Shown: positions 1,553-42,731 of the stretch, one piece after another
Position numbering within the stretch: the first letter of the stretch is position 1
Layout: the number at the start of each line of letters is the position of its first letter
Virus record (IMG/VR): IMGVR_UViG_2718218452_000011
Direction: 5' to 3' (one strand)
DNA: 49,640 nucleotides
Source of the DNA: a virus
Lineage: Duplodnaviria > Heunggongvirae > Uroviricota > Caudoviricetes
Program-made: the position numbers and the translations under genes
The notes under the pieces: generated by a model
What the model saw: only the letters and a program-made list of their open reading frames with translations
Database searches by the model: none
Told to the model about the DNA's origin: nothing

Positions 1553-1753
1553 TCACGAGGACTGAAGTTTCTCGCAATTAAAATTTATCAGTTTTACTTT
1601 CTGCTCTCTGGAAACGCCTGCTTCTTTTTTCCCTGAGAGCATTTTTTCGCATTCCGATTTGGTTAACTTTGTTTTTGAGTACCTTGTCCAGCTGGTAGGA
1701 GTGCCACCTTCCTTTTCAATAGTGGCGGTAATTTTATACATGAACACCTCCAT
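1553..1753 (-). CDS. Small hypothetical protein (Rac ydaC position); start uncertain
   Basis: Track ORF 1553..1813 overlaps the Lar ORF; internal Met starts (1753 or 1741) reduce the overlap. Lys/Glu-rich, no recognised motif. Confidence 0.4.
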   Translation of the reverse strand: MEVFMYKITATIEKEGGTPTSWTRYSKTKLTKSECEKMLSGKKEAGVSREQKVKLINFNCEKLQSS

Positions 1754-1928
1754 TATTATTTCCAGTGGTTCGTTTATTCCATCTTTCGAGTGCTTCTTTT
1801 TCACTTCCACCATAACCGGTTCGGGATTCGCATCCGTTACACTTTGCGCGGTAATATCCTGAAATGGCTTTCACCGTTACTGATGGACAACCACAAAACG
1901 GACATGGTTTGACTTTTTCATACCGCAT
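1734..1928 (-). CDS. ralR: Restriction alleviation protein, Lar family (64 aa from second ATG)
   Basis: KPCPFCG...C..C zinc-ribbon signature typical of Lar; purine-rich RBS before ATG at 1928; location between xis and the recombination genes as in Rac. Confidence 0.65.
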   Translation of the reverse strand: MRYEKVKPCPFCGCPSVTVKAISGYYRAKCNGCESRTGYGGSEKEALERWNKRTTGNNNGGVHV

Positions 1929-14592: not shown

Positions 14593-14955
14593 ATGGCGAC
14601 TTTGACCAAAGAAGAACGGTTTACCAAAGAGCAGTTAATAGCCCACGCAGAGGAGACTATTGAATCACAGAGACTGTGCATACCAGGCACAATCGACCAT
14701 GACCTCATTCGCGCATATAAGATGGATATTGCTGTTCTGGAAATTGCACTGCAATTGCTGGCAGCAGCGCCAGTTGGTAAATTTTATGAATACAAACCAG
14801 TGGGGTATCAGCGTCTGGTCGACGAGTTAACCATGCAGGTAAAGCGGTTAGCCTGGCAACTGAGGAAAGCGAAGCCGGACTGCAAACTGCCGGATAAGGC
14901 GATGGACTACCTGGAGCGAAACGGACTGAAAAGCGAGGAGGATGTTTTACGATGA
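14593..14955 (+). CDS. Hypothetical protein (120 aa)
   Basis: Track ORF. Confidence 0.45.
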
Positions 14956-15035
14956 CCTGGCCTGAAGCATTCACAACGGCAGGAATTGCGATGGCGGTGG
15001 CGCTGGTGGTGTATTCGATTTGCCGCTGGGGATAA
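14952..15035 (+). CDS. Putative 27-aa hydrophobic peptide
   Basis: [27 protein letters not shown]; ATGA overlap with upstream stop; followed directly by a strong terminator. Confidence 0.25.
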
Positions 15036-15040
15036 CAAAC

Positions 15041-15072
15041 AAAAACCCCGGATTGACGGTCCGGGGTTTTTG
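15041..15072 (+). terminator. Rho-independent terminator
   Basis: AAAAACCCCGG-ATTGACGGT-CCGGGGTTTTT hairpin plus T-run. Confidence 0.6.
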
Positions 15073-15249
15073 AAGGAAACAAACAGAAACAACAATTGCC
15101 GTTATCTGTTGCCACCAATGACAAGTAAACGTATCTCAGGCGAGCGCATTGCGCCGTTCTGACGCGGATACATTAGCCTGGGCAGAAGGTTCTGGCAATA
15201 AAAAATAGCGTTTTCTTATCGGTGTCGGTAAGATTGTTGCGGGTGCTTG

Positions 15250-15409
15250 AGGCTGTCTGCCTCGGGCATGCCACTGTAAGGCAGACAGAGAAAAGCCCCA
15301 GTTAACATTACGCGTCCGGCAAGACGCTTAACATTAATCTGAGGCCCAATCTATGCTACACAAACGTAGGTTAGCCTCTTACGTGCCGAAAGGCAAGGAG
15401 AAGCAGGCT
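15250..15409 (+). promoter_or_regulatory. hok mRNA leader with stem-loop; expected location of Sok-like antisense RNA / mok-type control
   Basis: 9-bp inverted repeat CTGTCTGCC...GGCAGACAG (about 15254..15288); in-frame upstream extension of hok; AAGGAG RBS before hok ATG. Confidence 0.35.
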
Positions 15410-15565
15410 ATGAAGCAGCAAAAGGCGATGTTAATCGCCCTGATCGTCATCTGTTTAACCGTCATAGTGACGGCACTGGTAACGAGGAAAGACCTCTGCG
15501 AGGTACGAATCCGAACCGGGCAGACGGAGGTCGCTGTCTTCGTAGACTACGAATCTAGAGAGTAA
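15410..15565 (+). CDS. hok: Hok/Gef-family type I toxin (51 aa)
   Basis: MKQQKAMLIALIVICLTVIVTALVTRKDLCEVRIRTGQTEVAVF.. has the Hok/Gef signature (TM helix then RKDLCEV..R.G..EVAAF). Confidence 0.8.
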   Translation: MKQQKAMLIALIVICLTVIVTALVTRKDLCEVRIRTGQTEVAVFVDYESRE

Positions 15566-15635
15566 GAGTGACCAGGCGGGAGAGTAATCTCCCGCCACCT
15601 CTGATGTGTCAGGCATCCTCAATGCACCCACACTT

Positions 15636-15668
15636 AACCCGCTTCGGCGGGTTTTTGTTTTTATTTTC
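15636..15668 (+). terminator. Rho-independent terminator after hok (fbi-like 3' region)
   Basis: AACCCGC-TTCG-GCGGGTT followed by a long T-run. Confidence 0.5.
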
Positions 15669-15786
15669 AACGCGTTTGAAGTTTTGGATAGTGCCGGAAT
15701 AGAATCAAAAATACTTAAGTAGCGCGCAGGGAGAAGAGGGATGGACCCCGAACAGGGGAGTGCTATTTATCTGGAAGGATTCTGAA

Positions 15787-15961
15787 GATGAAAATCGAAG
15801 AATTGCGTGAAATTTTTAGTGAAGATGGCCTCTATGCTGTGCGCGTTGAGAATGGAGAAGTTATCTACACAACGTTAATTCCTGATGATCATGTGATTTT
15901 ATCTATCGAGGCATTCATTGAATACCTTGAAAGGCTCGGTTTCAAGGTGGTTCGCGAATGA
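15787..15961 (+). pseudogene. Small ORF apparently split by a +1 frameshift (20-aa and 45-aa pieces)
   Basis: ATG 15787 with GGAAGG RBS reads MKIEELREIFSEDGLYAVAR then stops; the adjacent frame continues ..RVENGEVIYTTLIPDDHVILSIEAFIEYLERLGFKVVRE to 15961. Removing one G in GTGGCGCG would give one 57-aa ORF. Confidence 0.3.
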
Positions 15962-24768: not shown

Positions 24769-26208
24769 TTGATGGCAGAGATCGAGATTACTGGCGGCCT
24801 CGGTTCAGCACTGATGCATATTCTTGAGGCTGAAGAAATTCAGCCGGGAACCGACATTGGCTATGAATTGTGTAAGCAGCTGTGGCAATTCCATCCTCTG
24901 GGCGGAAAACTTGTCGAAAAACCCATACTGATGGCGATGTGTAAGCCGCGCCAGTATAACGTGGAGACAGACCCTGACGAGAGGGTTGTGAGGCGTTTTC
25001 AGGAGGTATGGGAACGCATGAAGGTCAACGAGAAGATTAAAAATCTGTTTTTTCTGTCTCGTTGCTACGGTGCTGCAGCGATCGGCGTGGGCACCGACAG
25101 CGTTCCATGTCGTGAACCGCTTCCGACGTTCGGACTGACAGAAGATGACGTGTATATCAACGCGTGGGACCCGTTGAACGCTTCCGGTTCGATGGTGACT
25201 GACCAGAACCCCAACAGCCCGTTTTTCCAGGAAGCCAATAAAAAACTGAAGATTGGTGGGAAAGACTGGCATCCGTCACGCACACTGAAAATCTTCAACG
25301 GCACACCGATTTATCTGGAGTTTCAGAGTTCATCGTTCGGATTCACCGGACGTAGTGTGTTTCAGCGCGTTCTTTATTCCCTGAAATCCTATATCAACAC
25401 GATGGAGGCGAATGATCTCGTCAGCCAGAAGGCGGGCGTACTGGTAGCTAAAGTTGTGCAGTACGGTTCGAAACTTGACGGGATCATGGCTGCCGCCACG
25501 GGACGAAAAAGGGAAAACGTCAAAGAGGCAAAAAATAAAGGTGTGCTTAGTATCGGGAAGGATGAGGACGTTACCTCGCTAAATCTACAAAACATCGATG
25601 GTGCGCTAAACGCTGCACGCGACAATATTATTTCCGATATTGCGTCAGGGAGTGACGTTCCGGCGATCCTCATCAAAGAGGAAGCCTTTTCGAATGGTTT
25701 CGGTGAGGGGACCGAAGATTCGAAAGCCATCAGCCAGTATATCGATGGTGTACGCCAGCAGATTGAACCCGTGATGGATTATTTCGAACGCCTGGTGCAG
25801 TACATCGCCTGGAACGAGGAATTTTATCAGTCGCTGAAAAATGATTACCCGGACATCATAACTGATGACTATAAAACCACGTTTTACCAGTGGCGACGTG
25901 AATTTACCGCGACATGGCAGGAGCTGGTGGAGGAGTCGCCGGACAAACGCCGGGAAAGCGACAGTAAAGTGATTCAACAGGCGATAGCACTTTTCTCTGC
26001 CGTGTCGCCACAGGTTGATCCTGAAAACCGTGCCGCCGTCACTGAATGGCTGGCAAGCCTTGTTAATGCCACGCAAACCTATGGCGAAGCTCCACTCATC
26101 ATTGATGTGGACGCGCTGGCGAATTATGAACCACCGAAGCAGGAGACGCCTGATGGCAATTTCCAGCCGGGCGGTGAGGAAGAAGAAACGGATCAGGACG
26201 CTATATGA
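24769..26208 (+). CDS. Portal protein (479 aa), putative
   Basis: Size and position immediately after the terminase large subunit; acidic C-terminus. Confidence 0.6.
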   Translation: MMAEIEITGGLGSALMHILEAEEIQPGTDIGYELCKQLWQFHPLGGKLVEKPILMAMCKPRQYNVETDPDERVVRRFQEVWERMKVNEKIKNLFFLSRCYGAAAIGVGTDSVPCREPLPTFGLTEDDVYINAWDPLNASGSMVTDQNPNSPFFQEANKKLKIGGKDWHPSRTLKIFNGTPIYLEFQSSSFGFTGRSVFQRVLYSLKSYINTMEANDLVSQKAGVLVAKVVQYGSKLDGIMAAATGRKRENVKEAKNKGVLSIGKDEDVTSLNLQNIDGALNAARDNIISDIASGSDVPAILIKEEAFSNGFGEGTEDSKAISQYIDGVRQQIEPVMDYFERLVQYIAWNEEFYQSLKNDYPDIITDDYKTTFYQWRREFTATWQELVEESPDKRRESDSKVIQQAIALFSAVSPQVDPENRAAVTEWLASLVNATQTYGEAPLIIDVDALANYEPPKQETPDGNFQPGGEEEETDQDAI

Positions 26209-41570: not shown

Positions 41571-42731
41571 ATGGAAAATTTTGCAAATAAGTTAAAAATA
41601 CACACAGAGCATGTTGCAAAAATGGGGGTGTTTTGTACAACTGAAGAAACGACAAAACAAGCACTCATTATGCCATTACTAGATATTCTTGGTTTTACTC
41701 CGTATGATCCAAGAAAAGTCAAAGCTGAGTATAGTGCTGACTTCCCCGGGGTTAAGGCTAATGAACGGGTTGATTACGCTTTATTTTGTCATGATGTTCC
41801 TGTGATGTTCATTGAGGCGAAATCGTTTTCAGAACAAATTGATAATCACTGCCCACAGCTATCAAGATATTTTAATTCAACACCGGAAGTTACTATATCA
41901 GCCATTACAAATGGTGTTGAATGGCGTTTTTTTACGGATTTGAAACAAAAAAACATAATGGATTCAACGCCGTTTTTAAAAATAAGAATGGATTCTCTAA
42001 CTCACTCCGATATTACACAATTATTTCGTTTTCGTTATGATAAATTCAAACCAGAGGCTTTACGGACACTGGCTGAAGAAAGTGTTTATTTGAATTCATT
42101 TACTAAAACAATCAGTTCTAGTCTTCGTGAAGTTGATCTGGAGTTTGTTCGATATGTTGCTAGTCGTTCAAATATTGAGAGACAACTTAATCAGAGATTT
42201 CTTGAGTTCGTGACTCCATTAGTTAAACAGGCCGTTGAGCGCGCTGTTAGCGCAATGGTGGTTTCCGGGCTATCTACACAACCGGTAGAGCAAACTAAAG
42301 AAAATGATGCAACGGATACACAAGTTAATAACGCCATTGTTGATGAAGAAAACCCCAACATAATAACCACAGCCAAAGAATTGGAGCTATTTGAAAGGGT
42401 AAAACAAATCATACAAACAGAAGATAATATAGAATATAAAGATACTGAGTCATATTTTGGTGTGCTATTGAATGGTAAAACTAATAGATGGCTGTTAAGA
42501 TTTTATGATAAAAAATCTTCATTTATAACTTTACCTATTTCGCTTAGTGAAGTTCAGTTGAATGAAATAAGACGAGCTCGACTTGATACGGATGGTAAAA
42601 GGATACATATAACTAATCCGGAAGATATACTTCGCATATCTGGTTTGATTCTGGATTCATACGAGTATGTTAAAAATGATGATAATTTCCGCCGAGGGTC
42701 CAGAGTGAGCAGTTTAGAAGAGGTTGAATAA
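41571..42731 (+). CDS. HsdR-N/Mrr-like PD-(D/E)XK nuclease-domain protein with uncharacterised 240-aa C-terminal domain; candidate defence gene
   Basis: GGAGGAG RBS 6 nt before ATG 41571; motifs ..ERVDYALF..(16)..VMFIEAKS..Q..Y...TNGVEWRFF fit the type I R-subunit N-terminal nuclease fold; AT-rich, own promoter-like sequence and terminator; inserted between baseplate W-like and J-like genes. Confidence 0.6.
   Translation: MENFANKLKIHTEHVAKMGVFCTTEETTKQALIMPLLDILGFTPYDPRKVKAEYSADFPGVKANERVDYALFCHDVPVMFIEAKSFSEQIDNHCPQLSRYFNSTPEVTISAITNGVEWRFFTDLKQKNIMDSTPFLKIRMDSLTHSDITQLFRFRYDKFKPEALRTLAEESVYLNSFTKTISSSLREVDLEFVRYVASRSNIERQLNQRFLEFVTPLVKQAVERAVSAMVVSGLSTQPVEQTKENDATDTQVNNAIVDEENPNIITTAKELELFERVKQIIQTEDNIEYKDTESYFGVLLNGKTNRWLLRFYDKKSSFITLPISLSEVQLNEIRRARLDTDGKRIHITNPEDILRISGLILDSYEYVKNDDNFRRGSRVSSLEEVE

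What the first reader, a model, noticed from the sequence alone, without database searches (positions are those of the whole stretch)
15250..15670. hok-family type I toxin locus embedded in the prophage early region
A 51-aa Hok/Gef-type toxin ORF (MKQQKAMLIALIVICLTV...RKDLCEVRIRTGQTEVAVF) lies with a structured leader (9-bp stem at about 15254..15288), an in-frame upstream extension and a 3' hairpin terminator. Chromosomal hok loci are often decayed; here the ORF is intact. It could stabilise the prophage or act in abortive infection.
Basis: partly seen in the sequence, partly recalled or inferred. Interest (0 to 1): 0.45.

Follow-up and report, generated by a model that had tools for sequence, protein, structure and literature searches.

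The report
Intact hok/mok/sok toxin-antitoxin cassette in prophage
This is a complete, ordinary copy of the well-known hok/sok RNA-controlled toxin-antitoxin cassette, about 93% identical to the tested hokW-sokW of Shiga-toxin phages, sitting in a Rac-type prophage of E. coli; it is real but not new.

Summary
Window 15229-15662 (+) holds a complete hok/mok/sok type I toxin-antitoxin cassette.

- **Toxin and mok:** the 51-aa Hok ORF (15410-15565) matches Pfam HOK_GEF at 4e-23. The in-frame 70-aa extension from 15353 is the mok reading frame.
- **RNA elements:** the leader matches Rfam sok RF01794 (116 bits, cut-off 59). The 5' end (tac, 15241-15252) pairs with a 3' element (fbi, 15617-15629), and this pairing shows compensatory changes across 38 distinct hok loci. 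A Sok promoter and a hairpin-shaped Sok RNA lie on the minus strand (about 15361 to 15291). A terminator sits at 15636-15653.
- **Origin and context:** the window is E. coli C7, in a Rac-type lambdoid prophage. The cassette lies between the replication genes and the Q-like antiterminator, as in phage mEp460 and other Rac prophages.
- **Closest relative:** the cassette is about 93% identical to hokW-sokW of phages 933W and Sp5 (Hok 49/51 residues). Takada et al. 2021 showed that system is a type I TA that speeds lysis and phage release after induction.
- **Frequency:** at least 80% of the 501-base query is matched in 3808 of 5426 complete E. coli genomes.

Unlike the K-12 copies hokA, hokC, hokD and hokE, every regulatory element here is intact. 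Verdict: real, correctly interpreted, already known. The biological role in this prophage is untested.

The parts
15229..15234 (+). Predicted -10 hexamer (TAAGAT) of the hok promoter, 6 nt upstream of the conserved RNA 5' end. No good -35 element.
   Evidence: In 22 hok loci a TA...T-type hexamer (TAGAAT, TATAAT, TAGGAT, TACAAT and others) sits at the same fixed distance before the conserved GGG, while the sequence further upstream is unrelated. The promoter scanner did not reach its threshold here. Inferred, not shown.
15241..15662 (+). Predicted full-length hok mRNA of about 420 nt, from the conserved 5' G to the terminator U tract.
   Evidence: The Rfam model's position 1 aligns to 15241. 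The terminator is at 15636-15653. The MFE fold has z = -7.9. Transcript ends are inferred by homology, not measured.
15241..15252 (+). tac element (GGGUGCUUGAGG). It has three alternative partners: fbi, ucb and a metastable partner just downstream.
   Evidence: It pairs with 15617-15629 in the full-length MFE, with AAGCCCC 15293-15299 in the isolated 5' 60 nt at -32.0 kcal/mol, and with 15260-15272 when the 3' end is removed. These partners are named in the R1 model (PMC9841398).
15253..15288 (+).
   Evidence: Part of the Rfam RF01794 consensus structure. Homologues show paired changes, GTCTGCC/GGCAGAC versus ATCTGTC/GGCAGAT and TTTTTGT/ACAAAAA.
15293..15301 (+). ucb / anti-SD box (AAGCCCCAG). 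It pairs with the mok SD region in the closed form and with tac in the open form.
   Evidence: The full-length MFE pairs GCC.CAG here with CUG.AGGC at 15339-15345. The 5' 60-nt fold pairs it with tac. Conserved in all aligned leaders.
15291..15361 (-). Predicted Sok antisense RNA of about 71 nt: an unpaired 5' tail, a long hairpin and a U-rich 3' end. It overlaps the mok start by 9 nt.
   Evidence: Maps base for base onto sokW annotated in phage 933W. The fold is -30.6 kcal/mol with z = -5.6. K-12 sokC overlaps mokC by the same 9 nt. The inner hairpin stem covaries, GCGTC/GACGC versus ACGTC/GACGT. Expression not testable here.
15368..15396 (-). Sok promoter: -35 TTGCCT (15396-15391), 17-nt spacer, -10 TAACCT (15373-15368). 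The -35 overlaps the hok SD.
   Evidence: Read from the sequence. Both hexamers are conserved in position across Escherichia, Kluyvera, Photorhabdus, Pantoea and plasmid loci, as TTGCCT/TTGACC and TAACCT/TAATCT. By my reading of their primers, Takada et al. silenced sokW by replacing the + strand heptamer TAGGTTA; the same heptamer is at window 15367-15373 (primers YO-421 and YO-422). The generic scanner missed it.
15341..15344 (+). mok Shine-Dalgarno sequence (GAGG), 8 nt before the mok ATG.
   Evidence: Sequence. GAGGCC is invariant in the 18 aligned leaders.
15353..15565 (+). mok reading frame, 70 aa, in frame with hok.
   Evidence: 65 of 68 aligned residues match MokW of 933W. K-12 mokC is likewise an in-frame extension of hokC. 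K-12 mokB is out of frame, so the frame relation varies within the family.
15395..15400 (+). hok Shine-Dalgarno sequence (AAGGAG), 9 nt before the hok ATG.
   Evidence: Sequence. CAAGGAG is conserved in nearly all aligned leaders.
15410..15565 (+). hok toxin gene, 51 aa.
   Evidence: Pfam HOK_GEF 4.3e-23. PHROG 251 'MokW-like host killing' 1.3e-32. 96% identical to HokW, 92% to K-12 HokD and 78% to HokC. RefSeq annotates it as Hok/Gef family protein WP_000813259.1.
15548..15551 (+). TACG motif at Tyr47 (TAC followed by G). Candidate TadA A-to-I editing site at A15549, which would recode Tyr47 to Cys.
   Evidence: Every hok homologue examined except K-12 hokA, which has no TACG in its coding sequence, carries an in-frame TAC-G: at Tyr46, 47 or 48 where Cys30 is hard-coded, and at Tyr29 in hokB. 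The heptamer CUACGAA here equals the one at hokB's edited site. Editing of hokC, hokD and hokE at Tyr46 is reported in PMC5630033. Not shown for this locus.
15575..15596 (+). Perfect 9-bp hairpin with a GUAA loop downstream of the stop codon. It is the predicted 3' end-protecting hairpin of the processed (active) mRNA.
   Evidence: Its role is inferred from R1, where mutations in the last stem-loop of the truncated mRNA abolish toxicity (PMC9841398).
15617..15629 (+). fbi (fold-back inhibition) element, CCUCAAUGCACCC. It is complementary to tac with one bulged U.
   Evidence: This is the only match to CCTCAA.?GCACCC on the + strand of the window, apart from the complement of tac itself. The duplex of -21.1 kcal/mol is reached by 2 of 1000 shuffles. 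Compensatory changes occur at tac positions 4, 7, 8 and 12 in 38 distinct loci.
15636..15662 (+). Intrinsic terminator of the hok mRNA: a 7-bp stem, a 4-nt loop and a T run.
   Evidence: The same terminator follows hok in the Rac prophage of strain 442/2, but not in 933W.
15040..15072 (.). Perfect 13-bp inverted repeat flanked by A and T runs. A bidirectional terminator-like hairpin that insulates the cassette from upstream early genes.
   Evidence: Absent from the 933W and Rac 442/2 versions, where it falls within a roughly 160-nt block specific to the window. Function inferred.

Best explanation
This is a complete hok/mok/sok type I toxin-antitoxin cassette of the hokW/hokD subgroup. It is carried as an accessory gene in the delayed-early (nin-like) region of a Rac-type lambdoid prophage of E. 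coli C7.

**Mechanism, inferred by homology to plasmid R1 hok/sok and to hokW-sokW.**
1. A weak constitutive promoter (-10 at 15229-15234) makes a stable mRNA of about 420 nt.
2. While the RNA is nascent, the 5' tac element is held in a metastable hairpin.
3. In the finished RNA, tac pairs with the 3' fbi element. The ucb box then covers the mok ribosome-binding site, so the RNA is neither translated nor bound by Sok.
4. Slow 3' trimming removes fbi, back to the 15575-15596 hairpin. tac switches to ucb and the mok ribosome-binding site opens.
5. Ribosomes translating mok then allow coupled translation of hok.
6. While the cassette is present and transcribed, the short-lived Sok RNA, made from a stronger promoter on the opposite strand, pairs with the mok start region. 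This blocks translation and marks the duplex for RNase III.
7. If Sok supply stops, the reservoir of processed hok mRNA is translated. The 51-aa Hok peptide inserts into the inner membrane and collapses it.

**Likely role in this prophage, inferred from the tested homologue.** Sok is lost when the prophage is induced, and Hok then damages the membrane early, which speeds lysis and phage release. Prophage retention and interference with other phages are possible additional effects.

**Shown here:** all sequence and RNA-structure elements, and their conservation.
**Inferred:** transcription, processing, toxicity and role.
For: - **Toxin family:** Pfam HOK_GEF 4.3e-23; PHROG 251 at 1.3e-32.
- **Leader RNA:** Rfam RF01794 at 116 bits against a cut-off of 59.
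- **Closed form:** the full-length MFE shows tac/fbi and ucb/mok-SD pairing, z = -7.9. The tac/fbi duplex of -21.1 kcal/mol is reached by 2 of 1000 shuffles.
- **Covariation of tac/fbi:** compensatory double changes at four positions across 38 distinct loci from five genera, a plasmid and K-12 hokB.
- **Alternative folds:** a tac/ucb fold of -32 kcal/mol for the 5' 60 nt and a metastable 5' hairpin when fbi is removed. These match the three states described for R1 (PMC9841398).
- **Sok:** the promoter hexamers, mok SD, mok ATG and hok SD are conserved in position. The Sok fold is a 5' tail plus a long hairpin, z = -5.6.
- **Nearest relative:** about 93% DNA identity to hokW/mokW/sokW annotated in 933W and VT2-Sakai. 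Mok/Hok identity is 65 of 68.
- **Experiments on hokW-sokW:** HokW is toxic; sokW expressed from its own promoter neutralises it; by my reading of primers YO-421 and YO-422, the silencing mutation replaced the TAGGTTA -10 heptamer that is also present here; sokW disappears and HokW appears in the inner membrane after mitomycin C in a RecA-dependent way; deleting the locus delays growth arrest by about 40 min and halves phage release (PMC8621323).
- **Position:** the viable phage mEp460, the Rac prophage of strain 442/2 and K-12 Qin carry hok at the same position, followed by rem.
Against: - Nothing in the sequence contradicts the assignment.
- No expression, processing or toxicity data exist for this allele.
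- The generic promoter scanner did not call either promoter.
- ViennaRNA's MFE for the 3'-trimmed RNA prefers the metastable 5' hairpin over tac/ucb. Thermodynamic prediction alone therefore does not reproduce the activation step.
- NCBIfam Hok models score below their cut-offs: 53 against 73, and 39 against 89.
- The lysis-assist role may not apply here. An IS3 element at 28043-29256 lies between a truncated DUF2213 gene, which sits in the block right after the terminase genes, and a truncated NUDIX gene, so this prophage may not make particles.
- hokW sits in a different part of its phage genome and on the opposite strand of that record, so its trigger need not be the same.
- Chromosomal hok loci tested earlier did not mediate post-segregational killing, as cited in bioRxiv 10.1101/2025.08.07.668861.
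Confidence: 0.9

Rival explanations
1. Addiction module. The cassette mainly stabilises the prophage. Cells that lose or excise the element stop making the unstable Sok RNA, translate the stable processed hok mRNA, and die (post-segregational killing).
For: - This is the established function of the R1 plasmid system, and all RNA elements needed for it are present: a stable folded mRNA, the fbi element and the Sok promoter.
- The 933W record labels hokW 'prophage maintenance'.
- hok genes are about four-fold enriched in prophages (bioRxiv 10.1101/2025.08.07.668861).
- This prophage already carries a second type I TA, ralR/RalA.
Against: - The 933W label is a prediction, not an experiment.
- Takada et al. 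report that deleting hokW-sokW from Sp5 did not affect growth under normal conditions; they do not report on prophage stability.
- A single-copy integrated element is rarely lost by segregation.
Confidence: 0.25
2. Phage defence. Infection by a lytic phage shuts off host transcription and Sok decays. Hok then kills or depolarises the cell before the invader completes its cycle (abortive infection or exclusion).
For: R1 hok/sok on a high-copy plasmid reduced T4 plating efficiency by 42% and plaque size by about 85%, as cited in PMC8621323. The logic of an unstable antitoxin fits transcription shut-off.
Against: - The Hok and Mok proteins and both neighbouring ORFs match no PADLOC defence model.
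- hok is not enriched near defence systems (section title; Discussion text).
- The T4 effect was modest and was obtained at high copy number.
- For the closest relative, the measured effect was pro-phage, not anti-phage.
Confidence: 0.15
3. Silent passenger. The cassette is structurally intact but functionally idle under normal conditions, kept only by recent horizontal spread with lambdoid phage modules.
For: - The cassette is extremely common and moves between contexts. At least 80% of the query is matched in 3808 of 5426 E. coli genomes, with a median of 2 and up to 9 places per genome.
- It occupies different positions in 933W and in Rac-type phages.
- The prophage carries an IS3 insertion and a frameshifted gene.
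Against: - Regulatory RNA pairings are maintained by compensatory substitutions across genera, which indicates selection on regulated expression.
- The 96%-identical HokW is toxic and is expressed on induction.
- Decayed copies such as those in K-12 show visible lesions that are absent here.
Confidence: 0.1

Closest known systems
hokW-mokW-sokW of Stx2 phages 933W and Sp5 (VT2-Sakai)
   Same: - About 93% DNA identity over the cassette.
- Hok is identical at 49 of 51 residues; Mok matches at 65 of 68.
- The same mok frame, Sok promoter hexamers, long Sok hairpin, and tac and fbi elements.
- The same 27-aa ORF lies upstream.
- Experimentally a type I TA that assists lysis on induction (PMC8621323).
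   Different: - In 933W the cassette lies near one end of the record, on the opposite strand, upstream of the very large L0134 ORF. Here it lies in the nin-like early region.
- The window has a roughly 160-nt block with a bidirectional terminator before the promoter, a TAAGAT rather than TAGAAT -10 hexamer, and its own terminator after fbi.
- The predicted Sok 5' tail differs at several bases, GUGUAGCAUAGAUUGGGCC against GUUCAGCAUGGAUUGAGCC.
- The last two Hok residues are RE rather than EK.
hokD (relF) of the Qin prophage, E. coli K-12
   Same: Hok is 92% identical. It occupies the same prophage neighbourhood, with hok followed by rem. RefSeq names most close relatives of the window locus 'hokD'.
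   Different: K-12 hokD has no tac, mok or sok leader. relBE ends 71 nt upstream of the hokD start, and no tac motif was found. The window copy has the full regulatory leader.
hok/mok/sok (parB) of plasmid R1, the paradigm of the family
   Same: The same architecture and RNA logic: tac/fbi closure, ucb/mok-SD sequestration, a metastable 5' hairpin, a mok-coupled hok, and a cis-antisense Sok aimed at the mok start (PMC9841398).
   Different: - Hok protein identity is only about 44% (figure for HokW in PMC8621323).
- The window's mok is in frame with hok. From my own recollection, not checked here, R1 mok is out of frame, as K-12 mokB is.
- The Sok hairpin carries a 16-17-nt extension relative to the hokC, hokB and plasmid types.
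- The carrier is a prophage, not a plasmid.
hokC (gef)/mokC/sokC of E. coli K-12
   Same: Hok is 78% identical. mokC is an in-frame extension. sokC overlaps the mokC start by 9 nt, as predicted here.
   Different: In K-12, IS186 sits 20 nt after the stop codon and the fbi partner is lost: the best duplex is -13.3 against -21.1 kcal/mol. The Sok hairpin is short. The location is in the core chromosome.

Membership tests
hok/sok (Hok/Gef) type I toxin-antitoxin family | Toxin of about 50 aa matching the Hok/Gef profile, with an N-terminal hydrophobic helix and the conserved Cys, Thr, Leu and Glu positions | tested here: met
   Pfam PF01848 at 81 bits against a cut-off of 22. The invariant C15, T17, L29, E31 and E40 are shared with HokA to HokE and a plasmid Hok.
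hok/sok (Hok/Gef) type I toxin-antitoxin family | Overlapping upstream mok reading frame with its own Shine-Dalgarno sequence | tested here: met
   A 70-aa ORF from 15353, with GAGG 8 nt upstream. It aligns with the annotated mokW and mokC. The SD and ATG are conserved in 18 leaders.
hok/sok (Hok/Gef) type I toxin-antitoxin family | Structured hok leader recognised by the curated covariance model | tested here: met
   RF01794 at 116.1 bits against 59, covering the full model (positions 1-157). The hit is on the hok strand and the model consensus ends at the hok AUG. It therefore recognises the leader, which contains the complement of Sok.
hok/sok (Hok/Gef) type I toxin-antitoxin family | cis-encoded antisense Sok gene with its own promoter, opposite the mok translation start | tested here: met
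   TTGCCT, a 17-nt spacer and TAACCT lie on the minus strand, conserved in position. The -10 heptamer matches the one I read Takada's primers as replacing to silence sokW. The predicted RNA folds as a 5' tail plus a hairpin, z = -5.6. This is a sequence-level test only.
hok/sok (Hok/Gef) type I toxin-antitoxin family | Long-range 5'-3' fold-back (tac/fbi) supported by covariation | tested here: met
   Compensatory changes: U-A to C-G in 9 loci at tac position 4; G-C to A-U in 9 loci at position 12; and single compensatory changes at positions 7 and 8.
hok/sok (Hok/Gef) type I toxin-antitoxin family | Sok RNA is transcribed, is unstable and neutralises Hok; Hok kills by membrane damage | not testable with these tools
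   Shown only for the relative hokW-sokW, which is about 93% identical (PMC8621323).
hok/sok (Hok/Gef) type I toxin-antitoxin family | 3' processing of the mRNA activates translation and Sok binding | tested here: inconclusive
   Removing fbi in silico changes the 5' fold, and the tac/ucb fold is the MFE for the 5' 60 nt. However, the MFE of the trimmed RNA picks the metastable hairpin instead. This needs experiment.
Catalogued anti-phage defence systems (PADLOC) | Protein matches a model of a known or candidate defence system | tested here: not met
   No hit for Hok, Mok or the two neighbouring ORFs at E up to 0.01.
TadA-edited hok mRNAs | In-frame TAC-G at the Tyr that aligns with Cys46 of HokB | tested here: met
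   TAC G at codon 47 (15548-15551), with the heptamer CUACGAA as at hokB's edited site. Editing of hokC, hokD and hokE at this position is reported in PMC5630033. Whether editing happens here is not testable. Local fold predictions were ambiguous.

The most novel reading that the evidence does not exclude
The placement of the cassette may itself be the trigger. It lies on the same strand as the early rightward operon, just after a terminator (15040-15072). On induction, antiterminated early transcription would read through the cassette against the Sok promoter and occlude it. That would explain the unexplained, RecA-dependent disappearance of Sok seen for hokW, and would make Hok a timed, induction-coupled lysis helper.

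A perfect tRNA-Arg-like CUACGAA motif at Tyr47 might add a second layer, with TadA editing (Tyr47 to Cys) tuning toxin potency.
Probability: 0.1. Interest if true: 0.35.

Novelty: already known. Interest (0 to 1): 0.1.

Why it matters
The finding matters little as a discovery. hok/sok has been a textbook type I toxin-antitoxin system for decades. Its presence in lambdoid prophages was already annotated in the 933W record (AF125520). The near-identical hokW-sokW was characterised in 2021, and a recent survey catalogued tens of thousands of Hok homologues and their enrichment in prophages.

The value here is in annotation. RefSeq marks only the 51-aa CDS in this genome. The mok frame, the Sok RNA, the promoters and the tac, ucb and fbi elements can now be placed to the base. 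The locus can be recorded as an intact copy, unlike the four damaged K-12 copies (hokA, hokC, hokD, hokE). It could serve as a natural nin-region allele for testing how prophage induction removes Sok.

Tried and rejected
- **Related-locus search with a wide alignment.** It was repeated with the four closest proteins.
- **Generic promoter scan.** It called neither the hok nor the Sok promoter. Its one hit inside the leader, TTAACA-18-TATGCT at 15328-15357 (+), was set aside as chance: 2 sites were found against 0.8 expected, and it lies inside the Sok hairpin.
- **Permissive Rfam scan.** It gave only sub-threshold hits at 15034-15142 (rnk leader, toxic sRNA, PsrR1, F6) and a 22-nt CsrC fragment at 15575-15596. 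These are hairpin look-alikes, all far below their gathering scores, and were rejected.
- **NCBIfam.** Hok-family and HokA models scored below their cut-offs. These models are built on plasmid and HokA sequences, so I did not count this against membership.
- **PADLOC.** No hit.
- **Fold of the 3'-trimmed mRNA.** It did not reproduce the tac/ucb open form as the MFE.
- **Local folds around the TACG site.** They were inconsistent between alleles, so I make no claim of a tRNA-like hairpin.
- **Other mechanical ORFs.** The minus-strand 71-aa ORF (15455-15670) and the small + strand ORFs at 15568-15722 have no support and were treated as noise.
- **Not run.** Structure prediction and the large protein-database searches were skipped because identity was already unambiguous.
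Full report
**1. What is in the sequence**

The region 15200-15700 was read directly. A 70-aa in-frame version starts at ATG 15353. Both match Pfam HOK_GEF: 4.3e-23 for the short form and 1.1e-22 for the long form, against a cut-off of 22 bits. Both also match PHROG 251, 'MokW-like host killing'.

A scan of the whole window against Rfam gave three hits above gathering score. One is RF01794 (sok) at 15241-15415 on the + strand, at 116.1 bits against 59, E 7.5e-26. The hit is on the hok strand, and the model consensus ends in the AUG that aligns with the hok start. What the model recognises is therefore the hok leader, which contains the complement of Sok.

The 3' terminator is at 15636-15653, followed by a T run. 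The only correction is that the RNA starts at 15241, not 15250.

**2. Where the window comes from**

The 501-base query is 100% identical to E. coli strain C7 (cow), NZ_CP010240.1. The RefSeq annotation of the whole window shows a Rac-type lambdoid prophage:
- intR, xisR, ralR (with the RalA RNA found), recT, recE and kilR;
- a repressor region with ydaS and ydaT, then a DnaT-like protein and replication protein P;
- a string of small genes, then hok;
- DUF1367, DUF1364 and DUF1133 (called Q in the Rac record);
- holins, an endolysin, terminase, and baseplate, tail and tail-fibre genes.

The cassette is therefore in the delayed-early, nin-like region, on the same strand as the early rightward genes. 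The viable phage mEp460, the Rac prophage of strain 442/2 and K-12 Qin carry hok at the same place, followed by rem. The 57-aa ORF downstream of the window cassette (15788-15961) is Rem-like at its N-terminus.

**3. How common it is**

At least 80% of the query is matched in 3808 of 5426 complete E. coli genomes. Any match occurs in 4719 genomes, with a median of 2 and up to 9 places per genome. C7 itself has 4 places. Features under the matches are annotated as hokD or as Hok/Gef family protein.

Among phage records, 79 have a match. In 933W and VT2-Sakai the features are annotated mokW, hokW and sokW.

**4. RNA anatomy**

*Fold-back pairing.* Folding 15241-15658 gives -174.6 kcal/mol, with z = -7.9. 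In this fold the 5' GGGUGCUUGAGG pairs with CCUCAAUGCACCC at 15617-15629, with one bulged U. This is the tac/fbi fold-back. The duplex of -21.1 kcal/mol is reached by 2 of 1000 dinucleotide shuffles of the 3' region. The motif occurs nowhere else in the window.

*Covariation.* I fetched 54 loci encoding Hok relatives from one genome per species, and the K-12 loci hokA to hokE plus an IncHI2 plasmid hok. Among 38 distinct loci with both elements:
- tac position 4 is U-A in 28 loci and C-G in 9 (Photorhabdus, Pantoea);
- position 12 is G-C in 28 and A-U in 9;
- positions 7 and 8 each show one compensatory change (hokB and the plasmid).

The pairing is thus maintained by compensatory change.

*Closed and open forms.* In the same full-length fold, the box AAGCCCCAG (15293-15301) pairs with the mok SD region CUGAGGC. 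Alone, the 5' 60 nt fold so that tac pairs with AAGCCCC around the 9-13-bp hairpin, at -32.0 kcal/mol. This is the Rfam consensus structure. With fbi removed, the MFE instead pairs tac with 15260-15272. These three states match those described for R1: the closed full-length form, the open truncated form and the metastable nascent form (Le Rhun et al. 2022, PMC9841398). Thermodynamic prediction cannot rank the last two.

**5. The antisense gene**

Mapping the annotated sokW of 933W onto the window places Sok on the minus strand from 15361 to about 15291. Upstream of it, on the minus strand, are TTGCCT (15396-15391), a 17-nt spacer and TAACCT (15373-15368).

In an alignment of 18 diverse leaders, both hexamers keep their positions, as do the mok SD (GAGGCC), the mok ATG and the hok SD. 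By my reading of their primers, Takada et al. silenced sokW by replacing the + strand heptamer TAGGTTA with CCGGCTC (primers YO-421 and YO-422). The window has the same TAGGTTA at 15367-15373.

The predicted 74-nt RNA folds as a 9-nt free 5' tail followed by a long hairpin and a U-rich end, at -30.6 kcal/mol, z = -5.6. The inner stem covaries, GCGTC/GACGC against ACGTC/GACGT in Kluyvera. K-12 sokC overlaps mokC by 9 nt, the same overlap as predicted here.

**6. The hok promoter**

Sequence upstream of tac is unrelated among loci, apart from a TA...T hexamer at a fixed distance from the conserved RNA start. It is TAAGAT in the window, and TAGAAT, TATAAT, TAGGAT or TACAAT elsewhere. This supports a promoter with a -10 hexamer and a weak -35, and a start at or near G15241.

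**7. Intact versus decayed**

In K-12:
- hokC and hokE have IS186 about 20 nt after the stop codon, and their best tac partner is poor (-13.3 and -10.0 kcal/mol);
- hokA has IS150 in its leader;
- hokD lies 71 nt after relE and has no tac.

The window copy has none of these lesions.

**8. Function**

Nothing here can test function. The nearest relative has been tested (Takada et al. 2021, PMC8621323):
- HokW (49 of 51 residues identical to the window Hok) arrests growth when induced.
- sokW expressed from its own promoter prevents this, partly through RNase III and Hfq.
- After mitomycin C, sokW RNA vanishes, and HokW appears in the inner membrane about an hour before endolysin. This depends on RecA.
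- Deleting the locus delays growth arrest by about 40 min and halves released phage.

R1 hok/sok also modestly inhibits T4 (cited). Against a defence role, Hok has no PADLOC model and is not enriched near defence systems, although it is four-fold enriched in prophages (bioRxiv 10.1101/2025.08.07.668861).

I rank lysis assist on induction first, addiction second and defence third. There is a caveat. An IS3 element at 28043-29256 lies between truncated DUF2213 and NUDIX genes, and another gene is frameshifted. This prophage may therefore be defective, in which case only the last two roles could matter.

**9. A further known layer**

Bar-Yaacov et al. 2017 (PMC5630033) showed TadA editing of hokC, hokD and hokE at Tyr46 (TAC within TACG), which creates a second Cys. 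The window has TAC-G at codon 47 (15548-15551), with the heptamer CUACGAA identical to that at hokB's edited site. Editing is plausible but untested, and the local fold predictions were ambiguous.

**10. Verdict**

The finding is real and correctly interpreted. It is a complete hok/mok/sok cassette of the hokW/hokD subgroup in the early region of a Rac-type prophage. It is already known in kind and nearly in sequence, and interest is low.

Noticed in passing
window 14952-15035 (+): A 27-aa hydrophobic ORF ([27 protein letters not shown]). Its ATG overlaps the stop codon of the upstream gene (ATGA). It is conserved directly upstream of hokW in 933W ([26 protein letters not shown]) and in two other hok loci (L015, L018). 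It is not annotated in RefSeq or in 933W, and has no Pfam or PHROG match. It may be a small membrane protein that travels with some prophage hok cassettes.
   Followed up: partly
window 15040-15072: A perfect 13-bp inverted repeat flanked by A and T runs, a bidirectional terminator-like hairpin. It lies in a roughly 160-nt block between the 27-aa ORF and the hok promoter. The block is absent from the 933W and Rac 442/2 versions.
   Followed up: partly
window 1553-1928: A second type I toxin-antitoxin system lies in the same prophage: the ralR toxin gene on the minus strand, and RalA antitoxin RNA (Rfam RF02694, 215 bits) at 1557-1735 on the + strand. RefSeq also annotates a DUF1187 CDS on the opposite strand over the RalA RNA.
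   Followed up: no
window 26967-29602: An IS3-family element (28043-29256, with the ALIL frameshift pseudoknot at 28859-28975) lies between a C-terminally truncated DUF2213 gene and an N-terminally truncated NUDIX gene. This is just downstream of the terminase genes and the two ORFs that follow them. The prophage is probably defective for particle formation.
   Followed up: no
window 15788-15961 (+): A 57-aa ORF (PHROG 340) whose first 31 residues are 61% identical to Rem of the Rac 442/2 prophage. RefSeq annotates only 15788-15865, as a partial pseudogene, although the ORF runs to a stop at 15961. The hok-rem order is the same as in K-12 Qin and mEp460.
   Followed up: partly
window 15548-15551 (+): A TACG motif at Hok Tyr47, with the heptamer CUACGAA identical to that at the TadA-edited site of hokB. 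Editing would give Tyr47 to Cys. A second TACG at 15504-15507 (GTA CGA) would be synonymous if edited.
   Followed up: partly
window 41571-42731 and 24772-26208: RefSeq annotates a 'type I restriction endonuclease' gene inside the baseplate/tail module, which may be a moron. It also annotates an 'anti-CBASS Acb1 family' protein immediately after the terminase genes, a position I would expect (from general phage gene order, not checked here) to hold a portal gene.
   Followed up: no
loci L013, L029, L032: E. coli-type hok sequences, 92-100% identical at the protein level, sit on contigs labelled Veillonella parvula MAG, Acinetobacter idrijaensis and Xanthomonas pisi. The last two contigs are 275 and 431 bases long. 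This is most likely contamination or mis-binning, not real hosts.
   Followed up: no
E. coli C7 chromosome (outside the window): The C7 chromosome has four places matching this cassette at megablast level. The predicted Sok 5' tails differ between alleles (window against 933W). This raises the question of whether paralogous Sok RNAs cross-react.
   Followed up: no
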